Shown here: positions 10,017 through 49,769 of the stretch, one piece after another
How the letters are laid out: every line of letters begins with the position of its first letter
Position numbering within the stretch: position 1 is the first letter of the stretch
NCBI GenBank assembly: GCA_964610505.1
Contig: CAZSXU010000014.1
Location: forward strand, 4,652 to 68,651
DNA: 64,000 nucleotides
Reading direction: 5' to 3'
Source of the DNA: an uncultured bacterium
GTDB taxonomy: Bacteria > Arandabacterota > Arandabacteria > JAGLYR01
Position numbers and translations under genes: made by a program
The notes under the pieces: model-generated
Database searches by the model: none
Told to the model about the DNA's origin: nothing
The model's input: the letters and a program-made list of their open reading frames with translations, nothing else

Positions 10017-10041
10017 CGCTTACCTGCCCGCCGGATCCCGG

Positions 10042-12362: not shown

Positions 12363-12939
12363 AACGATCCTCTCTCTGCGACTCCACAAAAAGCAGGGAC
12401 GATCTCGGATGTGTTCAACCCGGAATACGTGCGGGACGGGCAGGGGTTCTCCCGCATCCATCTCCATGAGGGTATACGAAACCGGGGCGGCCCGGTTTCG
12501 CCCGGATACGAGGAAAGATCCGGGCTCGCCAAGGGATTCTACCGACAGTTCGCCCGGAACGCAAGCTTGCATTCGGGTAGGGCAACGGAGAAGAAGAGAA
12601 ACAGGGAGGCCGGCACGTGAGGCCCGCCCCGGATCGAGCTTGCGGTTTTTTGCCTCAACGGGGCCGTTTTCTCGAGGGGTGGCCGGGGCGCGGTACTTGA
12701 GGGCCGGCGTCCGCCCGGCCCCTCCGGACGGCCAACAGAGCCGGAAGGGTCGCCGGAGCCGGCCGAGCGGCGGAGGTTGGTCTACAGGCCCGAAGGGGAC
12801 GTGCCGATGGTACGGTAGGATGCAGGCTCAGGGAGAGGGGCGTGCTCAACGAAGGCACTTTTGGCCGCGTGGCCCGCCTCTGGCCCCCCTTTTTCTGATC
12901 CGCACAGGGTTACCTCTTCCGTCGAAAGGGAGGACGCGA

Positions 12940-20919: not shown

Positions 20920-23900
20920 TTACTTCAACATGATCATCTTCTTGGTGAGGATCTTGCCGCCGGCCGTCAACCGGCAGAAATAGATGCCGGAAGATGCCTC
21001 CACCCCGCGGGTATCACGGCCCTCCCAGTGCGCGGCGTGGGTGCCGGCCTTGTACAGGCCGTCGGCCAGGGTTCTCACCAACCGCCCGTGAACGTCGTAG
21101 ACCGAGAGGTTCACGGCCGTGTCCTCGGGCAGTGCGAAGACGATCTCGGTTACCGGATTGAATGGGTTGGGCGAGTTCTGCGAAAGCGCCACTTCCGTGG
21201 GGTGCCGCCTTGTCCGATCCGCCACGTCGGTGGCATCGGTGATGGTGAAGTCGGCATCGCTCATGTCGCTCGCCGAGTTGCCGCCCCCGTCCCAGGCGTC
21301 GATCCGAATTCGGCACGTGGTCGCATCCACGTCCACCACCGGCCAGACGTACACGGAGTCGTTGACCTCTCCCATCGCCAGGGTGTCCGGGAAAGTGAGA
21401 CCGCTGTCATAGGACAGGAAGATGTTGACGGCGGTCACGCCCTCATTGTCCTCGGCATGCCAGAGGATCGGGTAGTCCGTCGTGCTCTCCAGCTCCTCGC
21501 CGCCGTTGGGATCGAGTACAACCACCGTGGGCGGCTCGGTGTCGCCGGGAAGCGGACACGCGAGGATCTGAAAGTCGTCCACACCCGCCTCCACGATGGA
21601 TCCCCCGCCGGCGTCCTCGGCCACGAAGCGGACCAGAACCTGCGTCGTGAGGTCCACGTAATCTCCGATGTTGAATTGCTGGAAAGCCCAGCTGCGATTC
21701 GAGACATTCGTCGTCTCCAGATTCTCCCAGCTGCCCCCTCCGTCATCGGAAATGTCCACCTTCCATACGTCCGTGCCGGGCTCGCTGCCCGTGTCGTTGG
21801 TGTACCAGCGATAGTAGGATACCAGAGCGCTCGAGTAATCGGAGAGGTCGATCGTGGGCGAGAAGAGCGTGGTCTTGCCGCCGTCGACGTCGTTGTCGCC
21901 CTGAGCTGCGCCCACAGGGGATTGCCCGGTGATGTAACACTGAGTTCCGGGAGCGACCGTGTGGTCGTCCTCCGGCTGGACCTGGTGGGTGCCGTCGTTG
22001 GTGCCGTTGGGATCGCACCGTTCCCAGATCCCGGTCGTGGCGCCGTCGTCACCGGCGCCGACCGTCCACCCCAAATCCGACTCGAGGTCATCGGCGAAGG
22101 CGGCCGTGTAGGTGATCTGGAAGTCGTGGTACGCCCCGGGAGCCAGATTCGGATCCGTCTCCCGATTGTGGGCGGTGTCGACGGCCAGGATGTAGTAGCT
22201 CACCACGGTTCCGCAGGTTTGTGCCGGGATGTCGGCGCGATACTCGTCGGGTGTTCCCGTACTCCACATCTGGATCGGTTCCCAGTCGCCGAAGGTCTTG
22301 AAGACGACGAAGAGAGAATCCGGATCCAGCGGCGCGGCCGTCGTCGTGATCTGGGCGACGACCGGGTATGGATGTGTAGCATCGCCCGTATCGGCCAGCG
22401 GTGTGTGGGTGATGAAAATCACCGGCGGCTGCTCGGGAGTGGCGCTCACCTCGTTCGAAAAGATACTGGGGTTGCCGTCGGTGTCCACGGCCTTGATGCG
22501 GTAGTGGTACGTGCTGTCGTTCTGGACGGCCGGGTCGAGGTACGTCGTGTCCGGGGCGTACACGACGTCCAGGGAATCGGTGGGTTCGGGTGCACGGTCC
22601 CGGAAGATGATGTAGTACGACAGGTTCGGCTCCGTGTTTGCGTCCCAGCTCAGAACCACCTCGGCATCGCCCGGTTCGGCCGTGAGGCCGGTTGGTTTGG
22701 AGGGACCGGAGCCGCCCACCGTCAACGTCGTGATATAGGGACTCTTGTTGTAGGCCGTCACCGTAAGAGTCGCGGTTTCTTCGGACAGGGTGCCCACGAT
22801 GGGAATGTCCACGTACCCGGAGGCGTTGGTGAAACCGTGGCCGTGATACTCTCCATCGCAGCAAGAGATCGCGCACCGGGCTCCCTCAATGCCCACGACG
22901 GTCACGGCAAACGTCGTTGCCTCGGGATCGATCGCCTCGTCGTGGTTCACGCTCATGGTCGCGGGCGTATCCGTCCGGACGGCCAGAGAGGGGTCGCCGA
23001 ACACGGTCCAGTACAGGAACTCGCCTTCCCCAAAGGACCCGTACTCGTCCATCATCTGGCAGGAACCGTTGAAACACAGGGCTCCGAACGTACGCTTCTC
23101 GTCGGCCACCAGGAGATCCACGCATTCGTCCTGTGCGCACATGGGCGGGTCCCAGGACTGGGAGATCGTGGATCCGTAGAACCCGATGGCGCCGGTCGGA
23201 ACGGATCCGTTGGTTGCCCTGAGCCACGACTCGGCGAAGCAGGTGTAACCGTCGAATTCGCCCACGTTGCAGGCCACGCTGAAGATGAACGGGAGCATAT
23301 CATGGTTGGTGAGGGCGTTGACGTGAGAGACGGAAAACCCGGTCGTGCTCCACCCCGTGACGCCGCCATGGCCGCAGTACGTGCCGATGCTCCGTCCGCC
23401 GTTGACGGCGATCGTGACCGACGACGACGATGCGCCCGGGTCGTAGATCTGATCGACTTCCGTGTACGTGTAGGCCAGGAGGTCGGCGCGAATGTTGTCG
23501 ATGTGCTCCCAATCATCCTCGCCGTCGTCACCGGGCCCCTCGGCGGAACCGATCCCGAATCCCTTGTGGTACCAGGAGGCCCCGGGCTGGGGGTCCCGCT
23601 CGTACTCCACCGTTCGCTCCACCTGGGTGTCCAGCTGCCCCGTGTTCTCCGCCGAGAACCGGCCGATCAAAATCTCGGGGTAGTTGTCGGACCCGGTAAT
23701 CAGGGAGTAGGAGGGATCCGAGGCGGCGGAACTCACGATCGGAGTGGGGCATTCGAGGTAGTCGCCCACCAACAGGACGTAGACCAGTTCTCCGCCGGAT
23801 GCATTGTACGCGTTGGTGATGTAGGTATCGATGGCGGAGGCCGATCCGCCGGCCTGGGTGACGGTGACCATCTCGGTCTCGAGGCCCATCTGGTTTTTCC

Positions 23901-24672
23901 AATCGACCAGAGGTTGCACGTTGGAGGTCCAGGCATCGTAGCAGATAACGAGCATCGTGCCTTCTTCGTCGACGGACGCGTAGCGATTCGGGTCATGATT
24001 GATGAAGTGCTCGCTATAGACCTGGTTGAAATCCCGCGTGAGCGTCTGTAGAGAATGAAGGCGTTCCAGCTCGTTCACGCCGGCGGAAAACGCCGGCCGA
24101 ACCTCGACGACTACATGCGTGTACACGCGAAGCGTCTGAGTTGCCGGGTTGTACTGGAAGGGATTCAGGACCACGACGGCGCCGCGAAAGTCTCTGAAAA
24201 TGTAAGGATCTCGATGGGTCGCGACCTCGGCCGGATACCAGGCATCGGTTTCGTAAAACGGATCGAAGGTGTAGGGAACGTCCTCCGGGTTCACGGTGCG
24301 CAGAAGGTTGCCCTTTGAGGGAGTGACGAGAACTCCGGAGATCTCGCGGTATGCGGACTCGAGAATCCGAAGATCGAGGCCTCCCGCATCGGCGAGAATT
24401 ACGCTTCGGCAGATGTTGGGAAGTTCGGGAAACCCGGCGGTGAGGTCCTTGCTCTCTCCTCCCAGGCCGATCCTATGGTAGGTCTCCCCGTCGATTTCGA
24501 CCGGAGTACGATCGAACCCGTTCACGCGGTACTCGATCACCGTATTGCCGATGTCGGCCCGAAGAACCTCCACGGAGAACGGCAGGGGTCCCTGTCCGAT
24601 CTCGATCCAGTCGGCCAGCGCCGGGGTCGCCGTGAATCCCGCCATGATGAGCACCACTAGCGCATTCCGCAT
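20920..24672 (-). CDS. C25 (gingipain-like) cysteine peptidase with C-terminal T9SS-type sorting domain
   Basis: Signal peptide MRNALVVLIMAGFTATPALA; catalytic-region motifs (YCGHGG, FSVACNVGEF); C-terminal ~80 aa (SPNPFNPVTEIVFALPEDTAVNLSVYDVHGRLVRTL...SGIYFCRLTAGGKILTKKMIMLK) match the Por-secretion/FlgD-Ig-like tail by recall. SD GAGGAGAGG before the ATG. Confidence 0.7.
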   Translation of the reverse strand: MRNALVVLIMAGFTATPALADWIEIGQGPLPFSVEVLRADIGNTVIEYRVNGFDRTPVEIDGETYHRIGLGGESKDLTAGFPELPNICRSVILADAGGLDLRILESAYREISGVLVTPSKGNLLRTVNPEDVPYTFDPFYETDAWYPAEVATHRDPYIFRDFRGAVVVLNPFQYNPATQTLRVYTHVVVEVRPAFSAGVNELERLHSLQTLTRDFNQVYSEHFINHDPNRYASVDEEGTMLVICYDAWTSNVQPLVDWKNQMGLETEMVTVTQAGGSASAIDTYITNAYNASGGELVYVLLVGDYLECPTPIVSSAASDPSYSLITGSDNYPEILIGRFSAENTGQLDTQVERTVEYERDPQPGASWYHKGFGIGSAEGPGDDGEDDWEHIDNIRADLLAYTYTEVDQIYDPGASSSSVTIAVNGGRSIGTYCGHGGVTGWSTTGFSVSHVNALTNHDMLPFIFSVACNVGEFDGYTCFAESWLRATNGSVPTGAIGFYGSTISQSWDPPMCAQDECVDLLVADEKRTFGALCFNGSCQMMDEYGSFGEGEFLYWTVFGDPSLAVRTDTPATMSVNHDEAIDPEATTFAVTVVGIEGARCAISCCDGEYHGHGFTNASGYVDIPIVGTLSEETATLTVTAYNKSPYITTLTVGGSGPSKPTGLTAEPGDAEVVLSWDANTEPNLSYYIIFRDRAPEPTDSLDVVYAPDTTYLDPAVQNDSTYHYRIKAVDTDGNPSIFSNEVSATPEQPPVIFITHTPLADTGDATHPYPVVAQITTTAAPLDPDSLFVVFKTFGDWEPIQMWSTGTPDEYRADIPAQTCGTVVSYYILAVDTAHNRETDPNLAPGAYHDFQITYTAAFADDLESDLGWTVGAGDDGATTGIWERCDPNGTNDGTHQVQPEDDHTVAPGTQCYITGQSPVGAAQGDNDVDGGKTTLFSPTIDLSDYSSALVSYYRWYTNDTGSEPGTDVWKVDISDDGGGSWENLETTNVSNRSWAFQQFNIGDYVDLTTQVLVRFVAEDAGGGSIVEAGVDDFQILACPLPGDTEPPTVVVLDPNGGEELESTTDYPILWHAEDNEGVTAVNIFLSYDSGLTFPDTLAMGEVNDSVYVWPVVDVDATTCRIRIDAWDGGGNSASDMSDADFTITDATDVADRTRRHPTEVALSQNSPNPFNPVTEIVFALPEDTAVNLSVYDVHGRLVRTLADGLYKAGTHAAHWEGRDTRGVEASSGIYFCRLTAGGKILTKKMIMLK

Positions 24673-38845: not shown

Positions 38846-39301
38846 ATGGAGCGTGATTCTTTGAAATCACAGCGGTTACCGGCATTCTTGATCTGGGTAT
38901 GTCTGGCGGCGTACCTCCCGGCGGCGGTTCCCGGAACGGCGGCGTCTCCCATGTTCTGCGTGAGGACGGACGGGCGCGTGGCCGTGGAGACCGGCGGGGA
39001 AAGCCACTGCAACCCGATCCCTGTTTCGGACGCCCACGCCTGCTGCTCTCACACCCAAGAGAGCGTCCAATTCCAGGATACGAGGTGCCACTGCGGTCCG
39101 TGTATCGACATCGCCGTCCCGCTCGATCAGAGCATTGTCGGAATCCCCGACGTTTCGTTCAATCCCGTGACGGTGCCTCTCGCCATTCATGCCGAGATCT
39201 TCGTTCCGGACCCCCTCTCGGGAGAGAGCGAGGTTCGCTCCGTCCCGCCTGATAGCCGGGATCCGCTCTCTTCCCTCCGCACGGTCGTTCTTCTGATCTG
39301 A
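38846..39301 (+). CDS. Hypothetical small secreted Cys/His-rich protein (possible periplasmic metal-binding protein)
   Basis: Signal-peptide-like N-terminus; cluster HCNPIPVSDAHACCSHTQESVQFQDTRCHCGPC. First ORF downstream of the promoter, upstream of the TolC/adaptor/RND genes. No SD seen, so start uncertain. Confidence 0.4.
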   Translation: MERDSLKSQRLPAFLIWVCLAAYLPAAVPGTAASPMFCVRTDGRVAVETGGESHCNPIPVSDAHACCSHTQESVQFQDTRCHCGPCIDIAVPLDQSIVGIPDVSFNPVTVPLAIHAEIFVPDPLSGESEVRSVPPDSRDPLSSLRTVVLLI

Positions 39302-39414: not shown

Positions 39415-40833
39415 ATGTCAAAGAACAACTCCATGTTTCATGTGCTCCAGATCCTTGCGATGGCTACCGGACTCGCGGCGGCCGCAGGCTGCGGGGGGGC
39501 TTCGAGTGGCCCCTGGCCCGAGGCCCGTCCTCTCGGGCGAGACCTCGACGCCTACCGGGCGCCTGCGCGTCCGACGTCGGCCTCCGACGCGCCGGCCCGG
39601 AGTTCGGGTGCCGATCCCCCTTCGACCGTCCTTTCCCTGAAAGATGCACTGGCGTTTGCGCTTGAGCGGAGTCCCGAGCTGGCGGCCTCCTCCTGGGAGG
39701 TTCGAGCCGCCGAAGCGAGAGCCGTTCAGGCGGCCTTAAGGCCGAACCCCGAAATCGAGCTGGAGGTCGAGGAATTCGGAGGCACCCACGGCCGGCGGGA
39801 CTTCGACGGGGCCGTCGTGATTCCGGCCGTCACTCAGGAGGTTGAGCTCGGCGGTAAACGCTCCAAGCGAAAGCGGGTTGCTCTCCTGGATACGCAGCTG
39901 GCCGGCTGGGACTACGAGTCCAAACGCCTCGATGTGTACACGGAGGTGAGGATGGCGTTCATTGCCGTACTCGCCGGCCAGGAACGGGTCCTCCTGGCCG
40001 AGGAACTGGTACGGCTGTCCGACGAGGTCTACTCGTCCGTTGCGGAAAGGGTGAACGCCGGGAAGGTTTCCCCGCTTGAAGAGACCAAGGCGAGCGTGAC
40101 TCTCTCCACCAGCCGCATCGAGCGGGACCATGCGAAACGCGATCTTGCCGTGGCGAGAAAGCGGCTTTCGATTACCTGGGGAAATCCATCGCCGACGTTT
40201 GAGAGGGTCGAGGGGCAGCTGGAGTCACCGGGCCAGGTTCCGCCCGTCGAGACGCTGGTCTCCCGGGTTGCCGGGAACCCCGAGGTGGCCCGCTGGACGA
40301 CGGCGATCGAGCAACGTCGTGCCGCCATCGAGATGGAGAAGGCCGGGAGGATTCCGGACCTGACCCTATCGGGCGGCGTCCAGCAGTTCAGGGAAACCGG
40401 CGATCGGGCATTCAAGGTGGGGATCTCCATTCCGTTTCCGATCTTTGATCGCAACCAGGGGGCGGTGAGGGAAACCGAGAGCGCCCTGGCCAAGGCGAAC
40501 GAAGAACGCCGGGCCGTCGAGGTACGGGTTCGCGGCCGGATTCTGGAAACACATGAATTGTTAACGGTAGCTCATTCGGAAGCCCGGAGTCTCGGCGAGG
40601 TGGTTCTTCCGGCCGCCCGCCGGGCGTTTGAGGCTGCCGAGGAGGGCTACCGGAGTGGGAAGCTGGGATACCTGGATGTCCTGGATGCCCAGCGGACCTA
40701 CTTCCAGGTGAAAGAACAGTGGGTCCAGGCGCTCTCGGCCTATCACGGGGCCGTGGCGGAAATGGAACGACTGATCGGCGGGTCCCTCCGGGAAGCGGGC
40801 GGGCTCGAACCAAACCAGGAGAATCAACGATGA
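39415..40833 (+). CDS. TolC-family outer membrane efflux protein (CzcC/CusC-like lipoprotein)
   Basis: Lipobox-like LAAAAGCGG; OEP-type coiled-coil repeats; stop overlaps the adaptor start (ATGA). Confidence 0.85.
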   Translation: MSKNNSMFHVLQILAMATGLAAAAGCGGASSGPWPEARPLGRDLDAYRAPARPTSASDAPARSSGADPPSTVLSLKDALAFALERSPELAASSWEVRAAEARAVQAALRPNPEIELEVEEFGGTHGRRDFDGAVVIPAVTQEVELGGKRSKRKRVALLDTQLAGWDYESKRLDVYTEVRMAFIAVLAGQERVLLAEELVRLSDEVYSSVAERVNAGKVSPLEETKASVTLSTSRIERDHAKRDLAVARKRLSITWGNPSPTFERVEGQLESPGQVPPVETLVSRVAGNPEVARWTTAIEQRRAAIEMEKAGRIPDLTLSGGVQQFRETGDRAFKVGISIPFPIFDRNQGAVRETESALAKANEERRAVEVRVRGRILETHELLTVAHSEARSLGEVVLPAARRAFEAAEEGYRSGKLGYLDVLDAQRTYFQVKEQWVQALSAYHGAVAEMERLIGGSLREAGGLEPNQENQR

Positions 40834-42299
40834 AACGAACGGAGACCTTGGCCCTGGCTGTGGCGGTCTTTCTTTTCGCAGTCTCGGGCGTCCTGTGGCT
40901 CACGAAGCCCGACTCGCCGGGTGTCCCCGCGGCGCACGACGGCGGGGATCATACCGGCGGCGGATTGTGCGGCCACGACCATTCCGCCGAGGCACCGGCG
41001 GACGCGAACGTGCCCGCGTGCGGCCACGACCATTCCGCCGAGGCACCGGCGGAAGACGGCGCACCCTCGTGCGATCATGACCATTCGGGGGAACACGCGC
41101 ACGGCGAAGGCGCGGCGGATCTTGAGATGTCGATCGATGAAATCATGACGACCGAATGCGAGCACGGAGTGGCCACGCATCTCTGCGATGACTGCCGGTA
41201 CGAAGTCGGTGTCGTCAAGGTGGACGAGTCGCTCATTCGAAATCACCCCACCTCCGAAGAGGGACTGATCCGCGTCATCCCGGCTTCCCGATCGGCAACG
41301 CCTTCCGTCTTGCGGGTCACGGGGGAGGTGGGACTCAATGAAAACCAGGCCGTTCGCATCAGCCCGCAGGTCCCCGGCATCATCCGATCGGTGCCCATTG
41401 ACATCGGTGCCCGGGTGAAGAGGGGGGACGTGCTCTTCGAGATCGAGAGCCGGGAGCTGGGGCGGGCCTTCAGTGAGTATGAGAGAAACCGGGCGATGGC
41501 GGATCTGGCCAGGCAGAACTTCGAGCGGGAGAAGACCCTTTTCGACAAGAAGATCTCCTCCGAGTGGGACATGATCGAGACGCAGATGGTCTATAAGGAG
41601 CACGAGACGAATCTCCAGGCGTCGGAGACGGCGCTCCGGGTTCTGGGATTTACGGACGAAGATCTACGGTCGCCGGCAGGACCGACGGGCGCGGCGCGGA
41701 CCGGGCGCCTCCCGGTTCGTTCGCCCATTGACGGCAGGGTCATCGAGAAACAAGCCGTGGTGGGAGAGCGGGTGGACGAAGGCGATGACCTGATGATGGT
41801 TGCGGATCTCGGTGCCGTCTGGGTGTGGGCCGACATCTATGAACAGGATCTGGCGACTCTCATCGAGGCCAGGCGGCACGGTCCGGTACCGGTCGAGGTA
41901 TCCGTGCACGCGTTTCCCGGGTTGGCGTTTCCGGGGGAGATCGACTACGTCGGCGCCGTGATGCAGGAACGAACCCGAACCGTGAAGGTGCGGGCGACGG
42001 TGGCCAACGGGGAAGAGCTTCTTCGCCCCGGGATGTTCTGCGAGATCCGGCTTCTCCTGGGAATCACCGATGCCGCCCTGGCCGTCCCCAAGGCCGCACT
42101 CCTCTCCGACGAGGGCGTCGATTTCATTTTCAAGCATCTGACGGGCAACTGTTTCGTCCGGAGACCGGTGGACCTAGGACGAGAGTTCGAGGGCCGGGTG
42201 GAGGTTCTCGCCGGACTCGGTGCCGGTGAGATGATCGTGACCGACGGCGCATTTCTTCTGAAATCGGATGTCCTGCGCTCGAAGATGGGCGCAGGCTGA
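40830..42299 (+). CDS. RND efflux periplasmic adaptor (CzcB/CusB-like) with His/Cys-rich N-terminal extension
   Basis: Start at ATG 40830 (MKRTETLALAVAVFLFAV). N-terminal CGHDHSAEAPA repeats, then HlyD-type adaptor domains. Confidence 0.85.
   Translation: MKRTETLALAVAVFLFAVSGVLWLTKPDSPGVPAAHDGGDHTGGGLCGHDHSAEAPADANVPACGHDHSAEAPAEDGAPSCDHDHSGEHAHGEGAADLEMSIDEIMTTECEHGVATHLCDDCRYEVGVVKVDESLIRNHPTSEEGLIRVIPASRSATPSVLRVTGEVGLNENQAVRISPQVPGIIRSVPIDIGARVKRGDVLFEIESRELGRAFSEYERNRAMADLARQNFEREKTLFDKKISSEWDMIETQMVYKEHETNLQASETALRVLGFTDEDLRSPAGPTGAARTGRLPVRSPIDGRVIEKQAVVGERVDEGDDLMMVADLGAVWVWADIYEQDLATLIEARRHGPVPVEVSVHAFPGLAFPGEIDYVGAVMQERTRTVKVRATVANGEELLRPGMFCEIRLLLGITDAALAVPKAALLSDEGVDFIFKHLTGNCFVRRPVDLGREFEGRVEVLAGLGAGEMIVTDGAFLLKSDVLRSKMGAG
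40967..41053 (+). repeat. In-frame 51-bp tandem repeat inside the adaptor gene
   Basis: GTGCGGCCACGACCATTCCGCCGAGGCACCGGCGGA occurs twice, 51 bp apart (40967 and 41018), encoding CGHDHSAEAPA twice; a third degenerate unit encodes CDHDHSGEHAHGE. Confidence 0.8.
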
Positions 42300-42341
42300 G
42301 CGGATTAGACGGCAGGCGTGCCCTGCCCTGTGGGGAGAACA

Positions 42342-45300
42342 ATGCTTGACGGCTTTATCAGACTCATACTTGCCCGGCGTTCTCTCGTGCTGATCGGAAC
42401 GGTCGTGCTCGTGATCGCTGGACTCTTCGCGTGGCGGCACCTGCCCGTCGACGCGTTCCCGGACGCCACGAACGTACAGGTGGTGATTCTCACCGAAGCG
42501 CCCGGTCTGGCGCCCGTGGATGTCGAACAACAGATTACGTTTCCCATCGAACTGGCGATGCAGGGTCTCCCGGACGTACGGGAGGTCCGCTCCCTGTCGA
42601 AATCGGCCCTCTCTCAGGTCATCGTGATCTTTGAGGACCATGTCGATACCTACTTCTCCAGACAGCTGGTGTTTGAACGTCTGGAGGCCGCCAAGGATGA
42701 TCTGCCGGATTGGGTCGAGCCCGAGATGGGGCCCATCAGTACAGGCCTGGGGGAGATCTACCAGTATACCCTGGAGAGCGACGTCCGGTCCCCGACCGAA
42801 CTCAGGACCATCCAGGACTGGCTCATCGCCCCCCAACTGCGCCCTGTGGCCGGAGTGAACGAGGTCAACAGCCTCGGCGGGTACGTAAAGCAGTACCACA
42901 TCCTGGTCGATCCCAACCGGTTGCTGAAGTACGGCGTCACGCTTCGAGATGTGGTCGAGGCGGTCGAGAACAACAACGCCAGCGCGGGCGGGAACTTCAT
43001 CGTCAAAGGATGGGAACAGGCCTACGTGCGATCCGTCGGCCTGGTCCAGACGCTGTCGGATATCGAACACATCGTTCTCAAGGCCGCGGACGGAGCGCCC
43101 GTGTTCCTGAGAGACGTGGCCGACGTGGAGGTTGGCGCGGAGACGCGGCAGGGTGCGGTCACGCGGGATGGAAAAGGGGAAACGGTGGCCGGGATGGCCA
43201 TCATGTTGAAGGGGTCAAATTCGAAAGAGGTCGTGGATCGCGTGAAGGAAGCGATCTCCAGAATCCAGGCGGGTCTGCCCGACGACGTGAGAATTTCACC
43301 CTTCTACGACCGGACGGCCCTCATCCAGGCATGCATTCATACCGTGAGCAACGCTCTCCTCCTGGGCGGGATTCTCGTCGTCCTGGTGCTTCTCCTCTTC
43401 TTGGGGAATCTCCGAGGAGCACTGGTTGTTGCGGCGTCTCTCCCGCTCACGGCGTTTATTGCCTTCATCCTCATGGGATGGAGCGGGGTGACCGCCAACC
43501 TCATGAGCCTGGGGGGGCTCGCCATCGCGATCGGCATGATCGTGGACGCGTCGATCATCGTGTCCGAGAACATCTCCCGCCACCTGGCGGAGCGGGGAAG
43601 GCGGACCTCGCCGACCGCCGAGATTGCCTTTGAGGCCGTGCGGGAAGTGGCGAGGCCCGTGATCTTCGCAATTCTGATCATTGTCATCGTGTTTGTTCCA
43701 CTGTTCACGCTGGAGCAGATGGAAGGCAAGATGTTCAAGCCCCTGGCCATGACCATGGTCTTCGCGCTGATCGGCTCACTCCTTGTGGCATTCACGGTGG
43801 TGCCGGCTCTAATGACATGGGTTCCGCGGGGGCGGAAAGGGGAGGAAGACAACCGGATCGTTCGCATGCTCAGGCGGGGATACCGGCCCGCCCTTTCCCT
43901 GGCACTGAAGCATCGATGGCCGACCGTGGTGATCGCCTTGGTCCTTCTCGTCGGGGTCATACTCCTCGTTCCCCATCTCGGCACAGAGTTTCTGCCGCAG
44001 CTCGACGAGGGGGCGATCGCGATCAACGCGACCCGCCTCCCCTCGGCTTCGCTGGACGGATCGGTTGCCGTAGGGACCTTCGTCGAGCAACGCCTCGCCG
44101 AGTTCCCGGAGGTGCAAACGGTCGTGACCAAGACCGGCCGCGCCGAGATCTCCGAAGACCCGATGGGCCCCGAGCAGAGCGACTTCGTCATCATGCTCCA
44201 TCCGAGGAACGAGTGGAAGACCGGTCGTTCCAAGGCGGATCTGGTGGCGGCGATCCAGGAGAACCTGAGCCAGATCCCCGGGCTCCGGCTCTCGTTCTCC
44301 CAGCCGATTGCCCTGCGTGTGAACGAGCTGATCTCCGGCATCAAGAGCGACCTGGCGGTCAAAGTGTTCGGGCCGGATCTGGAGGTTCTCAGGGATACGG
44401 CCAATGAAATCGCCGTCCGGATGCAGGGCGTTCGCGGAGCCGAAGACGTGAAGGTCGAGCAGATCTCCGGATTTGCACAGATTGAGGTCGATATCGATCG
44501 TCGTGAGATTGCCCGTCACAAAATCAACGTTGCGGACATCAACGAGATCATCGAGACGGCCGTCGGGGGCAGGGTGGCGACGACCATCGTAGAAGGGCAG
44601 ATGCGTTTCGCGGCGGCGGTGCGGTTCCCGGAGCCGTTTCGCCGGGACGCTGCTTCGTTGGCGCGAATTCTGGTGCCCGCGCCCGACGGGCGACGGATCC
44701 CCCTGGGGCAGCTGGCGGACATCCGGCAGGTGGAGGCGCCCGGGCAGATCAGCCGGGAGAACAACCTGCGTCGTGTGGTCGTGGAGTGCAATGTCCGCGG
44801 GCGTGACCTGGGCAGCTTCGTGGCGGAGGTTCGGGAGAAATCCCGATCCATCGTCGCGGGGATGCCGGCGGGATACTTCCTGGATTTCGGAGGTCAGTTC
44901 GAGAACCAGCAGCGCGCCATGCGGCGGTTGTCCATCGTCGTTCCCGTTTCCATTCTGCTTATCTTTCTGATGCTCTTTTCCGCCTTCGGTTCCCTCCGGT
45001 CGGCTCTTCTGGTTCTGGCCAATCTGCCGTTCGCTCTCGTTGGCGGAGTGCTGGCCATTTTCCTGTCCGGAATCAACCTCAGTGTCTCGGCCGCCATTGG
45101 CTTCATTGCCGTCTTCGGCATCGCGGTGGAGGACGGCACCGTCATGGTTTCGTTCTTCAACCGATTTCGCGACCAGGGATTGAGCCCGATGGATGCCGTA
45201 CGGAAGGGGTGCGAGGTCCGCTTCACCTCGGTTCTGATGACGACGCTCACGACTCTCCTGGGACTCATGCCCATGTTCTTTGCCCGGGGAAGCGGATCGG

Positions 45301-45428
45301 AAATTCAGCGTCCGCTGGCGGCCGTGGTGTTGGGCGGTCTGGCTTCGGCGCTCGTGCTGACGCTGCTGGTCCTGCCGGTGCTGTATTCCCTCGTGGAAGG
45401 TCGATCGGAGGCGGATGCGGAGACGTAG
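42342..45428 (+). CDS. Heavy-metal efflux RND transporter (CusA/CzcA family)
   Basis: About 1030 aa, 12 TM with two large periplasmic loops, HME-RND type; ATG 42342 with GGGGAG upstream. Confidence 0.9.
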   Translation: MLDGFIRLILARRSLVLIGTVVLVIAGLFAWRHLPVDAFPDATNVQVVILTEAPGLAPVDVEQQITFPIELAMQGLPDVREVRSLSKSALSQVIVIFEDHVDTYFSRQLVFERLEAAKDDLPDWVEPEMGPISTGLGEIYQYTLESDVRSPTELRTIQDWLIAPQLRPVAGVNEVNSLGGYVKQYHILVDPNRLLKYGVTLRDVVEAVENNNASAGGNFIVKGWEQAYVRSVGLVQTLSDIEHIVLKAADGAPVFLRDVADVEVGAETRQGAVTRDGKGETVAGMAIMLKGSNSKEVVDRVKEAISRIQAGLPDDVRISPFYDRTALIQACIHTVSNALLLGGILVVLVLLLFLGNLRGALVVAASLPLTAFIAFILMGWSGVTANLMSLGGLAIAIGMIVDASIIVSENISRHLAERGRRTSPTAEIAFEAVREVARPVIFAILIIVIVFVPLFTLEQMEGKMFKPLAMTMVFALIGSLLVAFTVVPALMTWVPRGRKGEEDNRIVRMLRRGYRPALSLALKHRWPTVVIALVLLVGVILLVPHLGTEFLPQLDEGAIAINATRLPSASLDGSVAVGTFVEQRLAEFPEVQTVVTKTGRAEISEDPMGPEQSDFVIMLHPRNEWKTGRSKADLVAAIQENLSQIPGLRLSFSQPIALRVNELISGIKSDLAVKVFGPDLEVLRDTANEIAVRMQGVRGAEDVKVEQISGFAQIEVDIDRREIARHKINVADINEIIETAVGGRVATTIVEGQMRFAAAVRFPEPFRRDAASLARILVPAPDGRRIPLGQLADIRQVEAPGQISRENNLRRVVVECNVRGRDLGSFVAEVREKSRSIVAGMPAGYFLDFGGQFENQQRAMRRLSIVVPVSILLIFLMLFSAFGSLRSALLVLANLPFALVGGVLAIFLSGINLSVSAAIGFIAVFGIAVEDGTVMVSFFNRFRDQGLSPMDAVRKGCEVRFTSVLMTTLTTLLGLMPMFFARGSGSEIQRPLAAVVLGGLASALVLTLLVLPVLYSLVEGRSEADAET

Positions 45429-45532: not shown

Positions 45533-47188
45533 ATGACGGGAGGGTTCGGAGTGAGGGGCTTCGGAAGCCGTCCCGGGGCCGGGACTTCCCGGCGCGATCG
45601 GAGACGAAGGATGATCCCTGGGAAGAGGAGAGCCGCCGACAGTTTGCGCGAGGGGGATGCGGAGAGGGGGCGGTTCGGGTTTCACGGTAAGCCGGCGGCG
45701 CTCGTTGTGTCGGTCTTTGTCGTTTCCCGAGTTCTCTTCTTCCTCGCCGGGGTCCGATTCGAGGCCACCCCCCTCAACAGCTACTGGCAGTATCTCGATC
45801 CTCAATGGCTCAGGGAGGATCTTGTCCGGAGCCTGTTCTATCTCCACAGCCAACCCCCACTGTTCAATTGTTTTCTCGGGCTGGTGTTGAAAACGTTCCC
45901 GGGTCACGAGAGCGGAGCTTTCGCCGTCAGCTACATGGCTCTCGGCCTGGTCCTGGGCATCTCTCTCTATTTGCTGATGATCCGGCTGGGCGTTTCGCGA
46001 TGGCTGGGCGCGGTGCTTTCGATCCTGTTCCTCATCAGTCCGTCATGCATTCTCTACGAGAACTGGCTTTTCTATACGTGCCCGGTCACCGTCCTCCTCT
46101 GTGTGTCGGCGCTGTTCTTTCACAGATTTCTGAGCACCCGCAGTGTGGCGAATGGCATCGTGTTTTTCACACTCCTTGCCGCCGTGGTATTGACTCGGAG
46201 CATCTTCCACCTCTTCTGGTTTCTGTTGTTCGGGGTGATTCTGGTTCTCTCGCAGCCGAGGCATTGGAAAAAAGTGGTCGTCGCGGGGTGTGTGCCGCTG
46301 GCGCTTCTCATGTTCGTCTATGCGAAGAATCTGTACCTCTTCGGGAGTTTTTCCAGCAGCACGTGGCTCGGAATGAATTTCGCCAAGATCACGACGGTTC
46401 GAGTGCCCAAGGAGCTGCGATGGGAATGGGTGAGCACGGGCACGCTTTCCAGCTTGGCCCTTCACCACCCCTTCGCCGGCCCCGGGAGTAGATCCTACCG
46501 CGGCTATTTCAGCCAACGGCCGAGAATCGGCGTCTCGGTTCTGGACGACGAGCTGAAGTCGACGGGACACGCGAACTATAACAACATCGCCTATGTCCGG
46601 ATCTCCAAGCAGTACTTCAGGGACGCGATGACCGTGTTGGCGCTCGATCCTGTCCGCTACCTCGGGGGGGTTGCCAAAGCCTGTGAGATTTACCTGAGGC
46701 CCGGAAGTCATTCGGAACTGTTGCGGGAGAATCGCAGGCGGCTGCGCGATTTCGAGAGAGCCTATCACATCGTCTTTCACGGGCAGGTTTCCGACGAGCG
46801 TGGAATCCCCCTCCAGCGTGGCAGCATTGCCGAGTACTATGTGCATGCCCGGGGAAGTGCGGGGTGGTTCACCAGCAAGGCCTGGTTCCTGATTGTGGGC
46901 TGCCCGCTACTCACGTTGTTCGGATTCGTTCTGGGGATGCGGGTGCTGAGGACGAGGGCGGACGCTCCCTTTGCGCTCACGATGCTGTTTCTGGCGGCCA
47001 ACATCGCCTACGTGACGGTGGTCTCCAACGCCGTCGAGATCGGTGAGAACAACCGGTATCGCTTCATTGTTGATCCTTATCTTCTCGTCATCGCCGGCGT
47101 GTGCCTGGAGCGCGGGCTCGGCGCGCTTCGGCGCCGCAGATCGGACATGAGCAAAGTGTGTGGAGACGAGCCGGGATACGGAGGGTAG
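45533..47188 (+). CDS. Hypothetical integral membrane protein
   Basis: Multiple TM helices, no family recognised. Alternative start ATG 45611 (MIPGKRR) has a better SD. Confidence 0.5.
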   Translation: MTGGFGVRGFGSRPGAGTSRRDRRRRMIPGKRRAADSLREGDAERGRFGFHGKPAALVVSVFVVSRVLFFLAGVRFEATPLNSYWQYLDPQWLREDLVRSLFYLHSQPPLFNCFLGLVLKTFPGHESGAFAVSYMALGLVLGISLYLLMIRLGVSRWLGAVLSILFLISPSCILYENWLFYTCPVTVLLCVSALFFHRFLSTRSVANGIVFFTLLAAVVLTRSIFHLFWFLLFGVILVLSQPRHWKKVVVAGCVPLALLMFVYAKNLYLFGSFSSSTWLGMNFAKITTVRVPKELRWEWVSTGTLSSLALHHPFAGPGSRSYRGYFSQRPRIGVSVLDDELKSTGHANYNNIAYVRISKQYFRDAMTVLALDPVRYLGGVAKACEIYLRPGSHSELLRENRRRLRDFERAYHIVFHGQVSDERGIPLQRGSIAEYYVHARGSAGWFTSKAWFLIVGCPLLTLFGFVLGMRVLRTRADAPFALTMLFLAANIAYVTVVSNAVEIGENNRYRFIVDPYLLVIAGVCLERGLGALRRRRSDMSKVCGDEPGYGG

Positions 47189-48338: not shown

Positions 48339-48474
48339 TTTTGACGAGAGGGACAAGGTCAAGGGCCATCCGCAGATGACGCAGATCAATGCGTAACCCC
48401 GATGCCCCTGTCCAAGCTCAACTTTCGACTGTCGACTTTCCATTTTCTCGGGCCGGCACTGCCCGGCCCGTTGG

Positions 48475-49029
48475 CTACTCGCGCAGGAATGCGAAGATTC
48501 TGGTGAAAGCCCAGATGGTGGGGATACCGGCGAGAAGCGTTGCGGCCACGGCCATGACCAGAGGACGAGACAACACCTCCAGCGCAGAGACCTGTTCCAG
48601 CGGCACATCCGCGGCTCGGGCCAAGAATCCCATGACCGCATCCCCGATCCATGCGACGGGTGCGGCAAGTCCCTGGACCACGGGCTCCATCAAAGCGGGG
48701 AGAATGCGCGCCAGGTCCGTTCTGAACACGAGAAGGAGTGCGGAACCGACGGCAAATGCAAATACCGGAACCAAATTGGCCCAACGTTGCGCCCTCTTCT
48801 CCGCCGCGCGATCGCTGATTGCTTTCTCGGTAACCCGCCGGGCGAAATCGGCCGATAGCCCGGAGGGCAACTCCTGGACCAGAGCCTCGTGGATTTTCTT
48901 CTGCAGGAGGAGTTCGGCCCGGCACCGGCGGCAGCCCGAGAGATGGGCCTCGAGCTCCGTCATCCGGCGCTCGGGGAGTGATCCCTCCAACATTCGGGCA
49001 ATCCACTCCGTGTAGTCGAGACAGGTCAT
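48475..49029 (-). CDS. Anti-sigma factor (zinc-finger HxxxCxxC type, membrane-spanning)
   Basis: HLSGCRRC motif near the N-terminus, TM helices in the C-terminal half; start overlaps the stop of the ECF sigma gene by 4 nt. Confidence 0.6.
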   Translation of the reverse strand: MTCLDYTEWIARMLEGSLPERRMTELEAHLSGCRRCRAELLLQKKIHEALVQELPSGLSADFARRVTEKAISDRAAEKRAQRWANLVPVFAFAVGSALLLVFRTDLARILPALMEPVVQGLAAPVAWIGDAVMGFLARAADVPLEQVSALEVLSRPLVMAVAATLLAGIPTIWAFTRIFAFLRE

Positions 49030-49769
49030 CCGGTCTGCCCCCCATTGCTCACCGCATCGCCCGAGGGTCCGGCGACGAGGTCGGCAAGGTCCGTACTGGC
49101 GAGGACCAGTTCCCTCAGGCGGAGCTTGGCCCGGTGGATGTAGGTTTTGACCGTTCCCAGGGGAATCCCCATGATCTCGGCGATCTCCTCGTAGCGGGCC
49201 TGGTTGACGTAGAAGAGCGTGAGTGCCGTCCGCTGCCGCGCCGGCAGCTGCTCCACCAGGGCCTGAATGTTCTCGGACAGATCCAGCTGCTCAATTTCCT
49301 CTTCGAGGTCGGTTCGCGACGGGGGAAGCAGGCGGTGGACTTTCTCGTCGCCCTCTTCCTCCAGTGAGAGATGCTCGCCGCGCCGCCCGCGCTTTCGGAG
49401 TTCCGAGAGGCAGAGGTTGTGAGCGATCTTGTAGATCCAGGTGCTGAACTTGCTCCCGCTCCTGAAACCGGGGATCGCACGATAGACTCTGAGAAACACT
49501 TCCTGAGTCAAGTCCTCACCCTCCAGGCTCCCCACCATCCGCCTCACGAGCCAGTGAATTCGATGTTGGTACCGCGTGACGATCTCGGCGAAAGCCTCGT
49601 GGTCCTCCTCCCGGCACCGCTCGACCAGTTCCTCGTCCGTCCGTTCCGCCACGGGTCTCTTGTCGTCCACCGTCGATTCCGGGTTAAGAGGCTCATGAGT
49701 CCAGTCCGCCGGGGGCGGTGAGATTGCTCCTGTTCCATCGTAATCGGCTTCGGCAGGACCTGCAAGCAC
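49026..49769 (-). CDS. ECF-subfamily RNA polymerase sigma-70 factor; start uncertain
   Basis: Region 2 (LTQEVFLRVYRAIPGFRSGSKFSTWIYKIAHNLCLSELRK) and region 4 (TALTLFYVNQARYEEIAEIMGIPLGTVKTYIHRA). Confidence 0.85.
   Translation of the reverse strand: MLAGPAEADYDGTGAISPPPADWTHEPLNPESTVDDKRPVAERTDEELVERCREEDHEAFAEIVTRYQHRIHWLVRRMVGSLEGEDLTQEVFLRVYRAIPGFRSGSKFSTWIYKIAHNLCLSELRKRGRRGEHLSLEEEGDEKVHRLLPPSRTDLEEEIEQLDLSENIQALVEQLPARQRTALTLFYVNQARYEEIAEIMGIPLGTVKTYIHRAKLRLRELVLASTDLADLVAGPSGDAVSNGGQTG

What the first reader, a model, noticed from the sequence alone, without database searches (positions are those of the whole stretch)
40967..41053. In-frame 51-bp tandem repeat encoding CxHDHS metal-binding motifs in the RND adaptor
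Two identical 36-bp cores 51 bp apart, plus a third degenerate unit, give CGHDHSAEAPA-CGHDHSAEAPA-CDHDHSGEHAHGE at the adaptor N-terminus. This is a His/Cys-rich metal-capture extension generated by recent tandem duplication, and its copy number may vary between strains.
Basis: seen in the sequence. Interest (0 to 1): 0.45.

Follow-up and report, generated by a model that had tools for sequence, protein, structure and literature searches.

The report
Repeated metal-binding arm on efflux adaptor
The 51-bp in-frame repeat is real and adds extra Cys/His metal-binding motifs to a flexible arm of a metal-efflux pump adaptor, which is ordinary for this protein family; the same gene also appears to encode selenocysteine at its tail, which has not been reported for this kind of pump.

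Summary
Two identical 36-nt cores lie at 40967-41002 and 41018-41053, with a third degenerate unit at 41070-41120. All are in frame in the periplasmic adaptor gene of an OMF-adaptor-RND heavy-metal efflux operon.

The repeat encodes three C-x-H-D-H motifs (aa 47-97) inside a segment predicted to be disordered, between the membrane anchor and a conserved Cys3His knuckle.

A His-rich linker is typical of the family: His is enriched 6-fold, and 96 of 118 homologues have at least 3 His. Other members carry independent in-frame tandem repeats of 24 and 39 bp at the same place. The repeat is therefore a lineage-specific expansion of a known kind of metal-capture arm.

- "Recent duplication" is only partly right. 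All 8 differences between units 1 and 2 fall in the last 16 nt.
- Strain-level copy-number variation was not seen. Three independent assemblies are identical.

One thing was found in passing. The called stop TGA (42297-42299) sits where about 90% of homologues have Cys in a C-terminal G-x-G-C-A-D tail. It is followed by Ala-Asp-stop and a SECIS-like hairpin. Six other loci show the same arrangement, so this is a probable selenocysteine. It is not in the selenoprotein catalogues I could read.

The parts
39415..40833 (+). Outer-membrane factor gene (CzcC/TolC-like). Its TGA stop overlaps the adaptor's ATG (ATGA).
   Evidence: Pfam OEP 6.4e-51; NCBIfam IhpA-like 5e-68, below cutoff.
40830..42308 (+). 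Periplasmic adaptor (membrane fusion protein) gene. It is called as 40830-42299 (489 aa). The proposed true CDS has 492 codons, with UGA at 42297 read as selenocysteine and a TAG stop at 42306-42308.
   Evidence: HlyD_D23 9e-46; TIGR01730 scores 161 bits against a cutoff of 94.9. ZneB is the best solved relative. AF2 mean pLDDT 87. C-terminal extension.
40830..40904 (+). N-terminal membrane anchor or signal segment (aa 1-25, MKRTETLALAVAVFLFAVSGVLWLT). There is no lipobox.
   Evidence: AF2 helix 2-24 and the sequence itself. The topology is inferred.
40917..41105 (+). Disordered linker rich in His, Cys, Asp and Glu (aa 30-92; 10 His and 3 Cys in aa 29-97).
   Evidence: pLDDT below 50 for aa 30-90. 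Across the family, linker His is 11.1% against 1.8% in the rest of the protein.
40968..41018 (+). Repeat unit 1 in codon register: CGHDHSAEAPADANVPA (aa 47-63). The identical core is 40967-41002.
41019..41069 (+). Repeat unit 2: CGHDHSAEAPAEDGAPS (aa 64-80). The identical core is 41018-41053.
41070..41120 (+). Repeat unit 3, degenerate and probably ancestral: CDHDHSGEHAHGEGAAD (aa 81-97). It differs from units 1 and 2 at 23-24 of 51 nt.
   Evidence: It aligns with the single CAHDH unit of P0003 and P0006.
41157..41195 (+). Conserved knuckle C110-E-H112-x6-C119-x2-C122, directly followed by RYEVGVVKV, the first beta-strand of the adaptor body.
   Evidence: C110, C119 and C122 are invariant and H112 is at least 90% conserved in 69 sequences. 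118 of 118 full-length homologues have it, 4 of them with Cys in place of His. pLDDT 95-97. No Pfam family matches.
42039..42041 (+). Codon of C404, a fourth invariant cysteine (GMFCEIR) in the beta-barrel region.
   Evidence: ZneB has Ala at this position.
42297..42299 (+). TGA that was called as the stop; candidate selenocysteine codon (U490) in the tail G-A-G-U-A-D.
   Evidence: 114 of 120 homologues end in G-x-G-C-A-[DH]. A further 47 of 52 long representatives do the same (42 matching G[AS]GC[AS]x automatically plus 5 read by eye as GEGCAH). Seven of seven loci called as truncated have TGA here.
42300..42308 (+). GCG GAT TAG, which reads Ala-Asp-stop after the TGA.
   Evidence: Across seven loci the Ala codon is GCG, GCT or GCA and the Asp codon is GAT or GAC. 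Only synonymous positions vary.
42311..42327 (+). Hairpin GGCAGG-CGUGC-CCUGCC, starting 11 nt after the UGA; candidate bacterial SECIS element.
   Evidence: Centroid structure -10.3 kcal/mol. Equivalent hairpins occur in all seven loci, with UGA-to-loop distances of 16-20 nt and a G in the first two loop positions. Stem changes are compensatory. The bSECIS criteria are quoted in PMC13188914.
42342..45428 (+). CusA/CzcA-family heavy-metal RND pump gene.
   Evidence: TIGR00914 scores 1179.7 bits against a cutoff of 701. ZneA 745 bits and CusA 660 bits.
38951..39301 (+). Small exported Cys-rich protein upstream of the operon, with a CHCGPC-DI motif. It may be an accessory protein; membership in the system is uncertain.
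   Evidence: Conserved in the syntenic relative L022. No Pfam or NCBIfam hit.

Best explanation
The repeat lies in the adaptor subunit of a three-gene heavy-metal efflux pump (outer-membrane factor, adaptor, CusA/CzcA-type RND pump).

After its membrane anchor, the adaptor has a flexible periplasmic arm of about 65 residues that is rich in His, Asp and Glu. In this lineage a C-x-H-D-H unit on that arm has been copied in tandem. An old copy gave unit 2. A later event, either a duplication or a homogenisation, gave units 1 and 2 their identical 36-nt cores. Each adaptor chain now carries three Cys/His sites instead of one.

The most likely job of the arm is to catch thiophilic or borderline metal ions in the periplasm. 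It would then pass them to, or signal their presence to, the conserved Cys3His knuckle at the base of the arm, and so to the pump entrance. This would be the Cys/His counterpart of the Met-based N-terminal region of CusB.

Shown here: the repeat, its reading frame, the gene and operon identity, predicted disorder, family-wide His enrichment, and recurrent independent repeats in homologues.

Inferred: metal binding, which metal, and hand-off as opposed to sensing.

Separately, the same protein very probably ends in G-A-G-Sec-A-D, which would add a selenolate to this set of thiol ligands.
For: The gene and operon are identified.

The repeat is in frame and is reproduced in three assemblies.

Residues 30-90 have pLDDT below 50, while the knuckle and the adaptor body score 95-98.

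The linker composition is conserved even though the sequence is not:
- His is 11.1% in linkers against 1.8% in the rest of the protein.
- Met is depleted to 0.3-fold.
- 96 of 118 linkers have at least 3 His.

Independent in-frame DNA tandem repeats occur at the same place in homologues:
- 24 bp x 2.3 in L019.
- 39 bp x 3.6 in L023.
- 14 of 118 linkers contain an exact internal repeat of at least 5 aa, against 7 of 118 in the roughly 7-fold longer remainder of the protein.

The C-x-H-[DE]-H copy number is 1 in P0003 and P0006, 2 in P0002, 3 here, and 4 related C-A-H-[DE]-x motifs in P0060.

The knuckle is invariant in 118 of 118 homologues. Four of them have Cys in place of His, a swap expected for a metal ligand.

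Published precedent: HME adaptors can carry extra N- or C-terminal metal-handling regions, and the first 61 residues of CusB bind and transfer metal (PMC4446572).
Against: No metal-binding data exist and no tool here predicts affinity.

Seven of 118 family members have no His at all in the linker, so the arm is not essential to the family.

Cysteines in an oxidising periplasm would tend to form disulfides. The model needs a reducing or anaerobic envelope, which was not tested.

The spacers of units 1 and 2 differ at 5 of 6 residues, which shows little constraint there.

Substrate prediction is ambiguous:
- The pump's TM4 motif is CusA-like.
- The CusA Met triad aligns to Asn, Gln and Glu, and overall similarity is higher to ZneA.

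No copy-number polymorphism was found.
Confidence: 0.55

Rival explanations
1. The repeat is a neutral low-complexity expansion in a disordered tether. Replication slippage changes the length of the arm and nothing selects for the motifs themselves. Only the tether function, spacing the adaptor from the membrane, matters.
For: The region is predicted disordered. It is hypervariable in length and sequence among homologues. Some homologues have no His in it. Repeats of several unit lengths occur in the family.
Against: His is enriched 6-fold across 118 diverged linkers, and Lys, Arg and Met are depleted, which argues for selection on composition. C-x-H-[DE]-H is kept in each of the four closest relatives. 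The 12 core codons are identical while the spacer has diverged.
Confidence: 0.2
2. The arm is a metal sensor or switch rather than a carrier. Metal binding to the Cys/His units and the knuckle changes the adaptor's conformation and activates the pump, as has been proposed for CusB and ZneB, without the bound ion itself being transported.
For: The review cited reports that CusB directly activates CusA and that Zn binding changes ZneB conformation. The knuckle sits directly before the first strand of the adaptor body.
Against: A switch would not obviously benefit from three copies. Nothing in the sequence separates this reading from hand-off, and the two are not exclusive.
Confidence: 0.2
3. The cysteines, together with the candidate selenocysteine, serve a redox role rather than a binding role. 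Examples would be reducing Cu(II), or handling metalloids or oxidised periplasmic thiols, with the repeat units acting as extra redox-active arms.
For: There are four invariant Cys plus a Cys/Sec tail position. Most known bacterial selenoproteins are redox enzymes (PMC13188914).
Against: The units have one Cys each, with no CxxC pair. They are flanked by His and Asp, which is typical of metal sites. The operon is a heavy-metal efflux type. The same review notes Sec acting as a metal ligand in transport proteins.
Confidence: 0.08
4. The array is an assembly or sequencing artefact.
For: Short tandem repeats can be mis-assembled in metagenomes.
Against: The whole array is 120-153 bp and is spanned by single k-mers or reads. 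Three assemblies from different samples and pipelines give identical DNA. The reading frame and downstream homology are intact.
Confidence: 0.02

Closest known systems
N-terminal metal-binding region of CusB (E. coli CusCFBA Cu/Ag efflux)
   Same: It is a flexible N-terminal region of an HME-RND adaptor, lying between the membrane anchor and the adaptor body. It binds the substrate metal and passes it on or activates the pump; the first 61 residues are sufficient (PMC4446572).
   Different: CusB uses a methionine cluster for Cu(I)/Ag(I) and works with the CusF chaperone. Here the ligands would be Cys, His and Asp, and Met is depleted 3-fold in the family's linkers. No CusF-like gene is adjacent. 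The CusA Met triad is absent from the pump. The N-terminal regions show no sequence similarity.
ZneB / CzcB-type adaptors of Cupriavidus (Zn/Co/Cd efflux)
   Same: ZneB is the best solved relative of the adaptor body: 3LNN, E 6.6e-36 from aa 147, and the top Foldseek hit. The operon type is the same. The ZneB Zn ligand E328 aligns with the invariant E458 here.
   Different: ZneB His220 and His284 align to Thr and Asp. ZneB lacks the His/Cys arm, the Cys3His knuckle, C404 and the Cys/Sec tail. A plasmid protein annotated czcB (KJ680225.1) has a different, folded N-terminal domain. TIGR00999 (CzcB/NccB) scores 168.7 bits against a cutoff of 319.3.
Lineage-specific His-rich repeat insertions in other metal-handling proteins (for example the GHS/GDS repeats in CopA of Cupriavidus neocaledonicus, and His-rich leaders of P-type ATPases)
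   Same: These are short His-containing units repeated in tandem within a metal-resistance protein, present in one lineage and absent from close relatives. They are interpreted as extra metal-binding sites (PMC7060636).
   Different: They occur in a different protein family and cell compartment. Their units are tripeptides without Cys. They have also not been tested experimentally.
Selenoprotein forms of metal transport proteins (SO_0444 Cu/Zn efflux transporter with U-x-C, MerT-like proteins, SaoB/SaoP) and C-terminal 'star' selenoproteins (KCU-star, UXX-star)
   Same: Sec replaces a conserved Cys that probably ligates metal. In the star families Sec lies within 0-2 residues of the C-terminus, so the SECIS must lie beyond the stop codon, as it does here (bioRxiv 10.1101/2022.07.06.499078; PMC13188914).
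   Different: None of the listed families is an RND adaptor. The NCBIfam model NF041211 (UXX-star family 2, motif GxGU) does not match this protein.

Membership tests
HME-RND tripartite efflux system, periplasmic adaptor (MFP/PAP) | Adaptor fold: lipoyl/barrel-sandwich domain, alpha-hairpin, beta-barrel and membrane-proximal domain. | tested here: met
   Pfam HlyD_D23 9.2e-46 and HlyD_3 1.5e-19. TIGR01730 scores 161 against a cutoff of 94.9. AF2 model pLDDT 87. Foldseek top hit is ZneB at 1e-26.
HME-RND tripartite efflux system, periplasmic adaptor (MFP/PAP) | Encoded next to an outer-membrane factor and a CusA/CzcA-family RND pump. | tested here: met
   OEP gene at 39415-40833, overlapping the adaptor start. 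TIGR00914 scores 1179.7 against a cutoff of 701 for the gene at 42342-45428.
HME-RND tripartite efflux system, periplasmic adaptor (MFP/PAP) | Actual export of a metal cation. | not testable with these tools
   The pump shows mixed signatures. TM4 is CusA-like, but the CusA Met triad is replaced by Asn, Gln and Glu, and overall similarity is closest to ZneA.
CzcB/NccB subfamily (TIGR00999) | Score above the curated cutoff of the subfamily model. | tested here: not met
   168.7 bits against a cutoff of 319.3.
CusB-type N-terminal metal site | Methionine cluster (M21/M36/M38 in CusB) in the N-terminal region, with a partner CusF chaperone. | tested here: not met
   There is no Met in aa 26-97. 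Linker Met is 0.3-fold of the rest of the protein in the family. No CusF-like gene is in the called neighbourhood.
Variable-number coding tandem repeat (strain-level length polymorphism) | Near-identical tandem units whose length is a multiple of 3. | tested here: met
   51-bp period, 36-nt identical cores.
Variable-number coding tandem repeat (strain-level length polymorphism) | Different copy numbers among closely related strains. | tested here: not met
   The gene is identical in 3 assemblies. The 90% cluster has 1 member. The metagenome scan found two-copy arrays only in the same strain. Read-level data were not available.
Bacterial selenoprotein gene | In-frame UGA aligned with a conserved Cys of homologues (a Cys/Sec pair). 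| tested here: met
   114 of 120 homologues, and 47 of 52 long representatives (42 by regex plus 5 GEGCAH read by eye), have Cys at this position. TGA is present in 7 of 7 loci called as truncated.
Bacterial selenoprotein gene | Conserved coding sequence downstream of the UGA. | tested here: met
   Ala-Asp-stop in 7 of 7 loci, with only synonymous variation: GCG/GCT/GCA and GAT/GAC.
Bacterial selenoprotein gene | bSECIS element: 3-9 nt loop, 4-16 bp stem, G in the first two loop positions, 16-37 nt from UGA to loop, and MFE at or below -7.5 kcal/mol (PMC13188914). | tested here: met
   Seven of seven loci have stems of 6-8 bp, loops of 3-5 nt beginning G or NG, and spacing of 16-20 nt. The window hairpin is -10.3 kcal/mol. 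The energy z-scores are weak, because GC-rich sequence folds anyway.
Bacterial selenoprotein gene | Genome encodes selA, selB, selC (tRNA-Sec) and selD. | not testable with these tools
   The 64-kb window has no tRNA and no Sel proteins among about 40 ORFs scanned. The rest of the genome is not available.
[quoted passage not shown] | Match to the family HMM. | tested here: not met
   The model is not among the NCBIfam hits for the full protein or for the tail with U changed to C at E up to 10.

The most novel reading that the evidence does not exclude
The adaptor is an undescribed selenoprotein. UGA at 42297-42299 would be read as selenocysteine, giving a C-terminal G-A-G-Sec-A-D tail directed by a hairpin that lies just beyond the true stop codon. 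Together with the repeated C-x-H-D-H arm, the invariant Cys3His knuckle and C404, this would form a thiolate/selenolate metal relay in the periplasm of an anaerobe. It would be the first component of an RND tripartite efflux pump known to use selenocysteine. The Cys-bearing arms occur in the same clade that carries the UGA.
Probability: 0.55. Interest if true: 0.75.

Novelty: new variant of a known kind. Interest (0 to 1): 0.5.

Why it matters
By itself the repeat matters little. It is one more example of a metal-efflux adaptor gaining binding sites by slippage in a disordered arm. It does offer a natural series of 1, 2, 3 and 4 units for testing whether site number tunes metal capture.

The family features around the repeat matter more. 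These are an unannotated, invariant Cys3His knuckle and a Cys/Sec C-terminal tail, found in more than 100 sequence clusters of metal-efflux adaptors from uncultivated bacteria.

If the selenocysteine is real, two things follow:
- It would extend selenium use to RND efflux machinery.
- Current gene calls would be cutting these proteins short by three residues, which include a probable ligand.

Tried and rejected
- Exact 24-mer scan of genome contigs: 4 hits, in Streptomyces and a Thermoanaerobaculia MAG. All are chance matches in unrelated frames or genes.
- Degenerate scan of metagenome contigs for CGHDHSAEA: only the same strain has two copies. The other 9 hits are unrelated proteins.
- Pfam on aa 1-180 and on the knuckle alone at E up to 10: no hits.
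- Rfam on 42200-42420: only a chance viral hit, because no bacterial SECIS model exists in Rfam.
- NCBIfam on the tail and on the small upstream protein: nothing specific.
- A search for Sec machinery and tRNA-Sec in the window found none.
- DNA for P0060 (four motifs) and P0101 was unavailable.
- These papers are not held in the library: Rensing 1997 on CzcB His-rich motifs, Pak 2013 on ZneA, De Angelis 2010 on ZneB, Mealman 2012 on CusB-NT, and Haft & Tolstoy 2025. Statements about CzcB His motifs and ZneA site residues therefore rest on memory and are given little weight.
- One literature search was wasted on ambiguous terms.
- The hairpin was considered as an intrinsic terminator and rejected. 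It has no U-run and is followed by the pump's ribosome-binding site and ATG.
- Genome-wide TGA reassignment was considered and rejected. TGA is the commonest stop of long ORFs in the window (31 of 67), and it ends full-length domain matches.
- Model coordinates are not exposed, so I could not test whether the knuckle, C404 and the tail lie close together in the model.
Full report
**1. The observation**

Tandem Repeats Finder reports an array at 40967-41086 with period 51, 2.4 copies and 85% matches. The repeat finder pairs 40967-41017 with 41018-41068 at 84% identity.

The first 36 nt of the two units are identical. This 36-mer occurs only at 40967 and 41018 in the window; none is expected by chance, even allowing three mismatches.

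A third unit at 41070 shares the codon pattern for C-[GD]-H-D-H-S. That pattern is found three times in the window, against 0.02 expected. C-x-H-[DE]-H occurs nowhere else in any of the six frames.

The gene DNA is identical in three assemblies made from different samples: ENA ERZ27256778, JGI 3300017987 and JGI 3300017989. The array is therefore not an assembly artefact.

**2. The gene and its setting**

The repeat lies in a 489-codon ORF that starts at ATG 40830. An AGGAG lies upstream, and the ATG overlaps the stop of the preceding gene.

The protein is an RND periplasmic adaptor: HlyD_D23 at 9e-46, and TIGR01730 above its cutoff. Its best solved relative is the zinc-efflux adaptor ZneB, by sequence from aa 147 and by fold.

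Upstream is an outer-membrane factor gene (39415-40833). Downstream is a CusA/CzcA-family pump gene (42342-45428; TIGR00914 scores 1179.7 bits against a cutoff of 701).

The pump gives mixed signals about its substrate:
- It is more similar to ZneA (745 bits) than to CusA (660 bits).
- Its TM4 motif, AIAIGMIVDASIIVSEN, resembles that of CusA.
- The three CusA methionines that relay Cu(I) align to Asn, Gln and Glu.

For these reasons I do not name the metal.

The locus is chromosomal and syntenic with that of a 55%-identical relative. The shared gene order is YkuD, Mur ligase, small protein, OMF, adaptor, pump, Memo.

**3. Anatomy of the N-terminal part of the adaptor**

- Residues 1-25 are a hydrophobic anchor, modelled as a helix.
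- Residues 30-90 have pLDDT below 50, so they are predicted to be disordered.
- Residues 29-97 contain 10 His, 3 Cys and many Asp and Glu.
- The three repeat units are aa 47-63, 64-80 and 81-97.
- After them come two short helices and a motif C110-E-H112-x6-C119-x2-C122-R-Y-E-V-G-V-V-K-V, modelled at pLDDT 95-97.

The motif is very well conserved:
- C110, C119 and C122 are invariant in an alignment of 69 homologues, and H112 is at least 90% conserved.
- All 118 full-length homologues retrieved have the motif. Four carry Cys in place of the His, a swap typical of metal ligands.
- Pfam has no model for this region.
- A search of 1.84 billion representative proteins with aa 93-160 found 111 clusters. 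Nearly all are adaptors of this type, and a few carry extra upstream copies of a similar C-x-E-H...C-x-x-C module.

**4. The repeat in the context of the family**

The stretch between the anchor and the knuckle is hypervariable in sequence and length; its median is 49 aa. Its composition, however, is conserved:
- His is 11.1% in linkers against 1.8% elsewhere in the protein.
- Met, Lys and Arg are depleted.
- 96 of 118 linkers have at least three His, and seven have none.

Tandem repeats recur at this site. L019 has a 24-bp unit x 2.3 (DGHAHLEN), and L023 has a 39-bp unit x 3.6. At the protein level, 14 of 118 linkers contain an exact internal repeat of 5 or more residues. Only 7 of 118 do so in the much longer remainder of the protein.

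The C-x-H-[DE]-H motif is found in the closest relatives at different copy numbers:
- one in P0003 and P0006;
- two in the syntenic relative P0002, with no DNA-level repeat;
- three in the window protein;
- four related C-A-H-[DE]-x motifs in P0060.

Unit 3 aligns with the single unit of P0003 and P0006 and is therefore the ancestral copy.

**5. How recent the duplication is**

Units 1 and 2 differ at 8 nt, and all 8 lie in the last 16 of 51 positions (P about 2e-5 if they were placed evenly). All five differing codons change the amino acid. Unit 3 differs from units 1 and 2 at 23-24 nt, with 3-4 codons that differ only synonymously.

A single recent 51-bp duplication would leave two identical 51-bp units, which is not what is seen. 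One possibility is that the cores were homogenised later, by gene conversion or slippage between the units. The other is that the spacers diverged unusually fast.

"Recent tandem duplication" is therefore partly right.

**6. Strain-level variation**

No evidence for strain-level variation was found:
- The protein's 90% identity cluster has one member.
- The next relative is 61% identical.
- DNA scans found two-copy arrays only in the same strain.

Read-level data could not be examined.

**7. Likely mechanism**

The review PMC4446572 states three relevant points:
- Adaptors of heavy-metal pumps may carry extra N- or C-terminal metal-handling regions.
- The N-terminal 61 residues of CusB bind metal, receive it from CusF and pass it on, and CusB activates CusA.
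- Zinc binding changes the conformation of ZneB.

By analogy, I propose that the disordered arm captures periplasmic metal at its Cys/His/Asp units. It would then deliver the metal, or signal its presence, to the conserved knuckle at the base of the arm, next to the part of the adaptor that contacts the pump. Three units per chain would raise local capacity.

This is inference from composition, position and precedent. No binding was measured. The ligand chemistry differs from CusB (no Met), and the protein does not reach the cutoff of the CzcB/NccB subfamily model. A plasmid protein annotated czcB has a different, folded N-terminal domain.

I therefore file this as working like the CusB N-terminal region, not as a member of that family.

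**8. A probable selenocysteine codon in the same gene (found in passing)**

The alignment consensus ends ...K-M-G-A-G-C-A-D, whereas the window protein stops at ...K-M-G-A-G. The tail G-x-G-C-A-[DH] is seen in 114 of 120 homologues, and in 47 of 52 long representatives (42 matched automatically plus 5 with GEGCAH read by eye from the same output).

The called stop is TGA (42297-42299). It is followed in frame by GCG GAT TAG, which reads Ala-Asp-stop.

I obtained DNA for six other loci whose proteins are called as ending just before the Cys position (P0002, P0003, P0006, P0056, P0189, P0192). All six show the same arrangement: TGA, then an Ala codon (GCG, GCT or GCA), an Asp codon (GAT or GAC), and a stop. 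Variation is limited to synonymous positions, although these proteins share only about 45-60% identity.

All seven loci then have a perfect 6-8 bp hairpin that starts 9-12 nt after the UGA. The loops are CGUGC, CGUGA, GUG, CGUGA, GGC, GGUC and GGUCA, and they lie 16-20 nt from the UGA.

This meets all four criteria of the bacterial SECIS model quoted in PMC13188914:
- a loop of 3-9 nt and a stem of 4-16 bp;
- a G in the first two loop positions;
- 16-37 nt between the UGA and the loop;
- a folding energy of -7.5 kcal/mol or lower.

Among the five stems that align in register, three of six pairs change on both sides while keeping the pairing.

Two homologues with Cys at this position, checked as controls, have TGC at the site. 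RNA folding of their downstream sequence places no hairpin at the equivalent distance.

TGA is otherwise the commonest stop codon in the window, so this is not a reassigned genetic code.

Weak points:
- The hairpin energies are not unusual for GC-rich sequence (z-scores from +0.5 to -2.2).
- The selenocysteine machinery is not in the window, and the rest of the genome was not available.
- I could not read Haft & Tolstoy 2025.

The 2026 review table of prokaryotic selenoprotein families and the BSepDB paper do not mention any RND adaptor, HlyD or efflux adaptor family. The NCBIfam model for the 'UXX-star family 2 (GxGU)' selenoproteins does not match this protein.

I rate the codon as a true selenocysteine site at about 0.8. 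I rate it as both true and undescribed at about 0.55.

**9. Verdict**

However, the repeat is a lineage-specific expansion in a region that is His-rich and repeat-prone across the whole family. On its own it is of low to moderate interest, about 0.25.

The surrounding features raise the value of the locus. These are the unannotated invariant knuckle and, above all, the probable selenocysteine tail. Overall interest is 0.5.

Noticed in passing
window 42297-42327 (also L021 5477, L025 4384, L026 4387, L027 3592, L028 2995, L029 2899): The adaptor's called TGA stop aligns with the conserved Cys of the family's C-terminal G-x-G-C-A-D tail. It is followed by Ala-Asp-stop and a SECIS-like hairpin, in 7 of 7 loci examined. 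This is a probable selenocysteine, and current gene calls cut the protein short by 3 residues.
   Followed up: yes
window 41157-41222 (aa 110-131) and 42039-42041 (C404): An invariant C-x-H-x6-C-x2-C knuckle lies directly before the first strand of the adaptor body, and there is a fourth invariant Cys at position 404. No Pfam or NCBIfam model covers the knuckle. It occurs in 111 representative clusters, and some adaptors have extra upstream copies (WCAEHGV..C..C).
   Followed up: partly
window 38951-39301 (+); L022 2065-2490; compare L014 1044-1460: A small exported Cys-rich protein sits immediately upstream of the efflux operon, with a CHCGPC-DI motif and a hydrophobic C-terminus. It is conserved in the syntenic relative and has no family assignment. 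An unrelated metagenome contig also has a small Cys/His-rich ORF just upstream of a His-rich lipoprotein. It may be an accessory metal-binding or regulatory protein.
   Followed up: partly
window 42342-45428: The pump combines a CusA-like TM4 motif (AIAIGMIVDASIIVSEN) with the absence of the CusA methionine triad, which aligns to N, Q and E. Its overall similarity is higher to ZneA. It does not fit the usual TM4-based substrate classes cleanly.
   Followed up: partly
window 45611-47188 (+): A 525-aa polytopic membrane protein with no Pfam or NCBIfam match lies between the pump gene and the Memo gene. It is absent from the same position in the syntenic locus L021.
   Followed up: no
L008 215-240, L014 1559-1584, L018 6830-6855, L011 5110-5135: The peptide CGHDHSAEA recurs in unrelated proteins from other metagenomes. 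These include His-rich lipoprotein N-termini, a multi-pass membrane protein with CGHDHGHMHHH, and a DUF-like cytoplasmic protein. This suggests convergent use of the same Cys/His motif.
   Followed up: partly
window 8766-12572 (-): A second efflux-type module is present: two MacB-like permease genes (MacB_PCD plus FtsX domains) and a HlyD-family adaptor without the knuckle.
   Followed up: no
window 48386-49769 (-): An ECF-type sigma factor gene is followed by an overlapping 219-aa ORF with no family match, possibly an anti-sigma factor. The pair lies just beyond the Memo gene. No two-component czcRS-type regulator is next to the efflux operon.
   Followed up: no
window 20920-24672 (-): A 1250-aa gingipain-like protease (Peptidase_C25 with propeptide) has a C-terminal FlgD Ig-like domain.
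   Followed up: no
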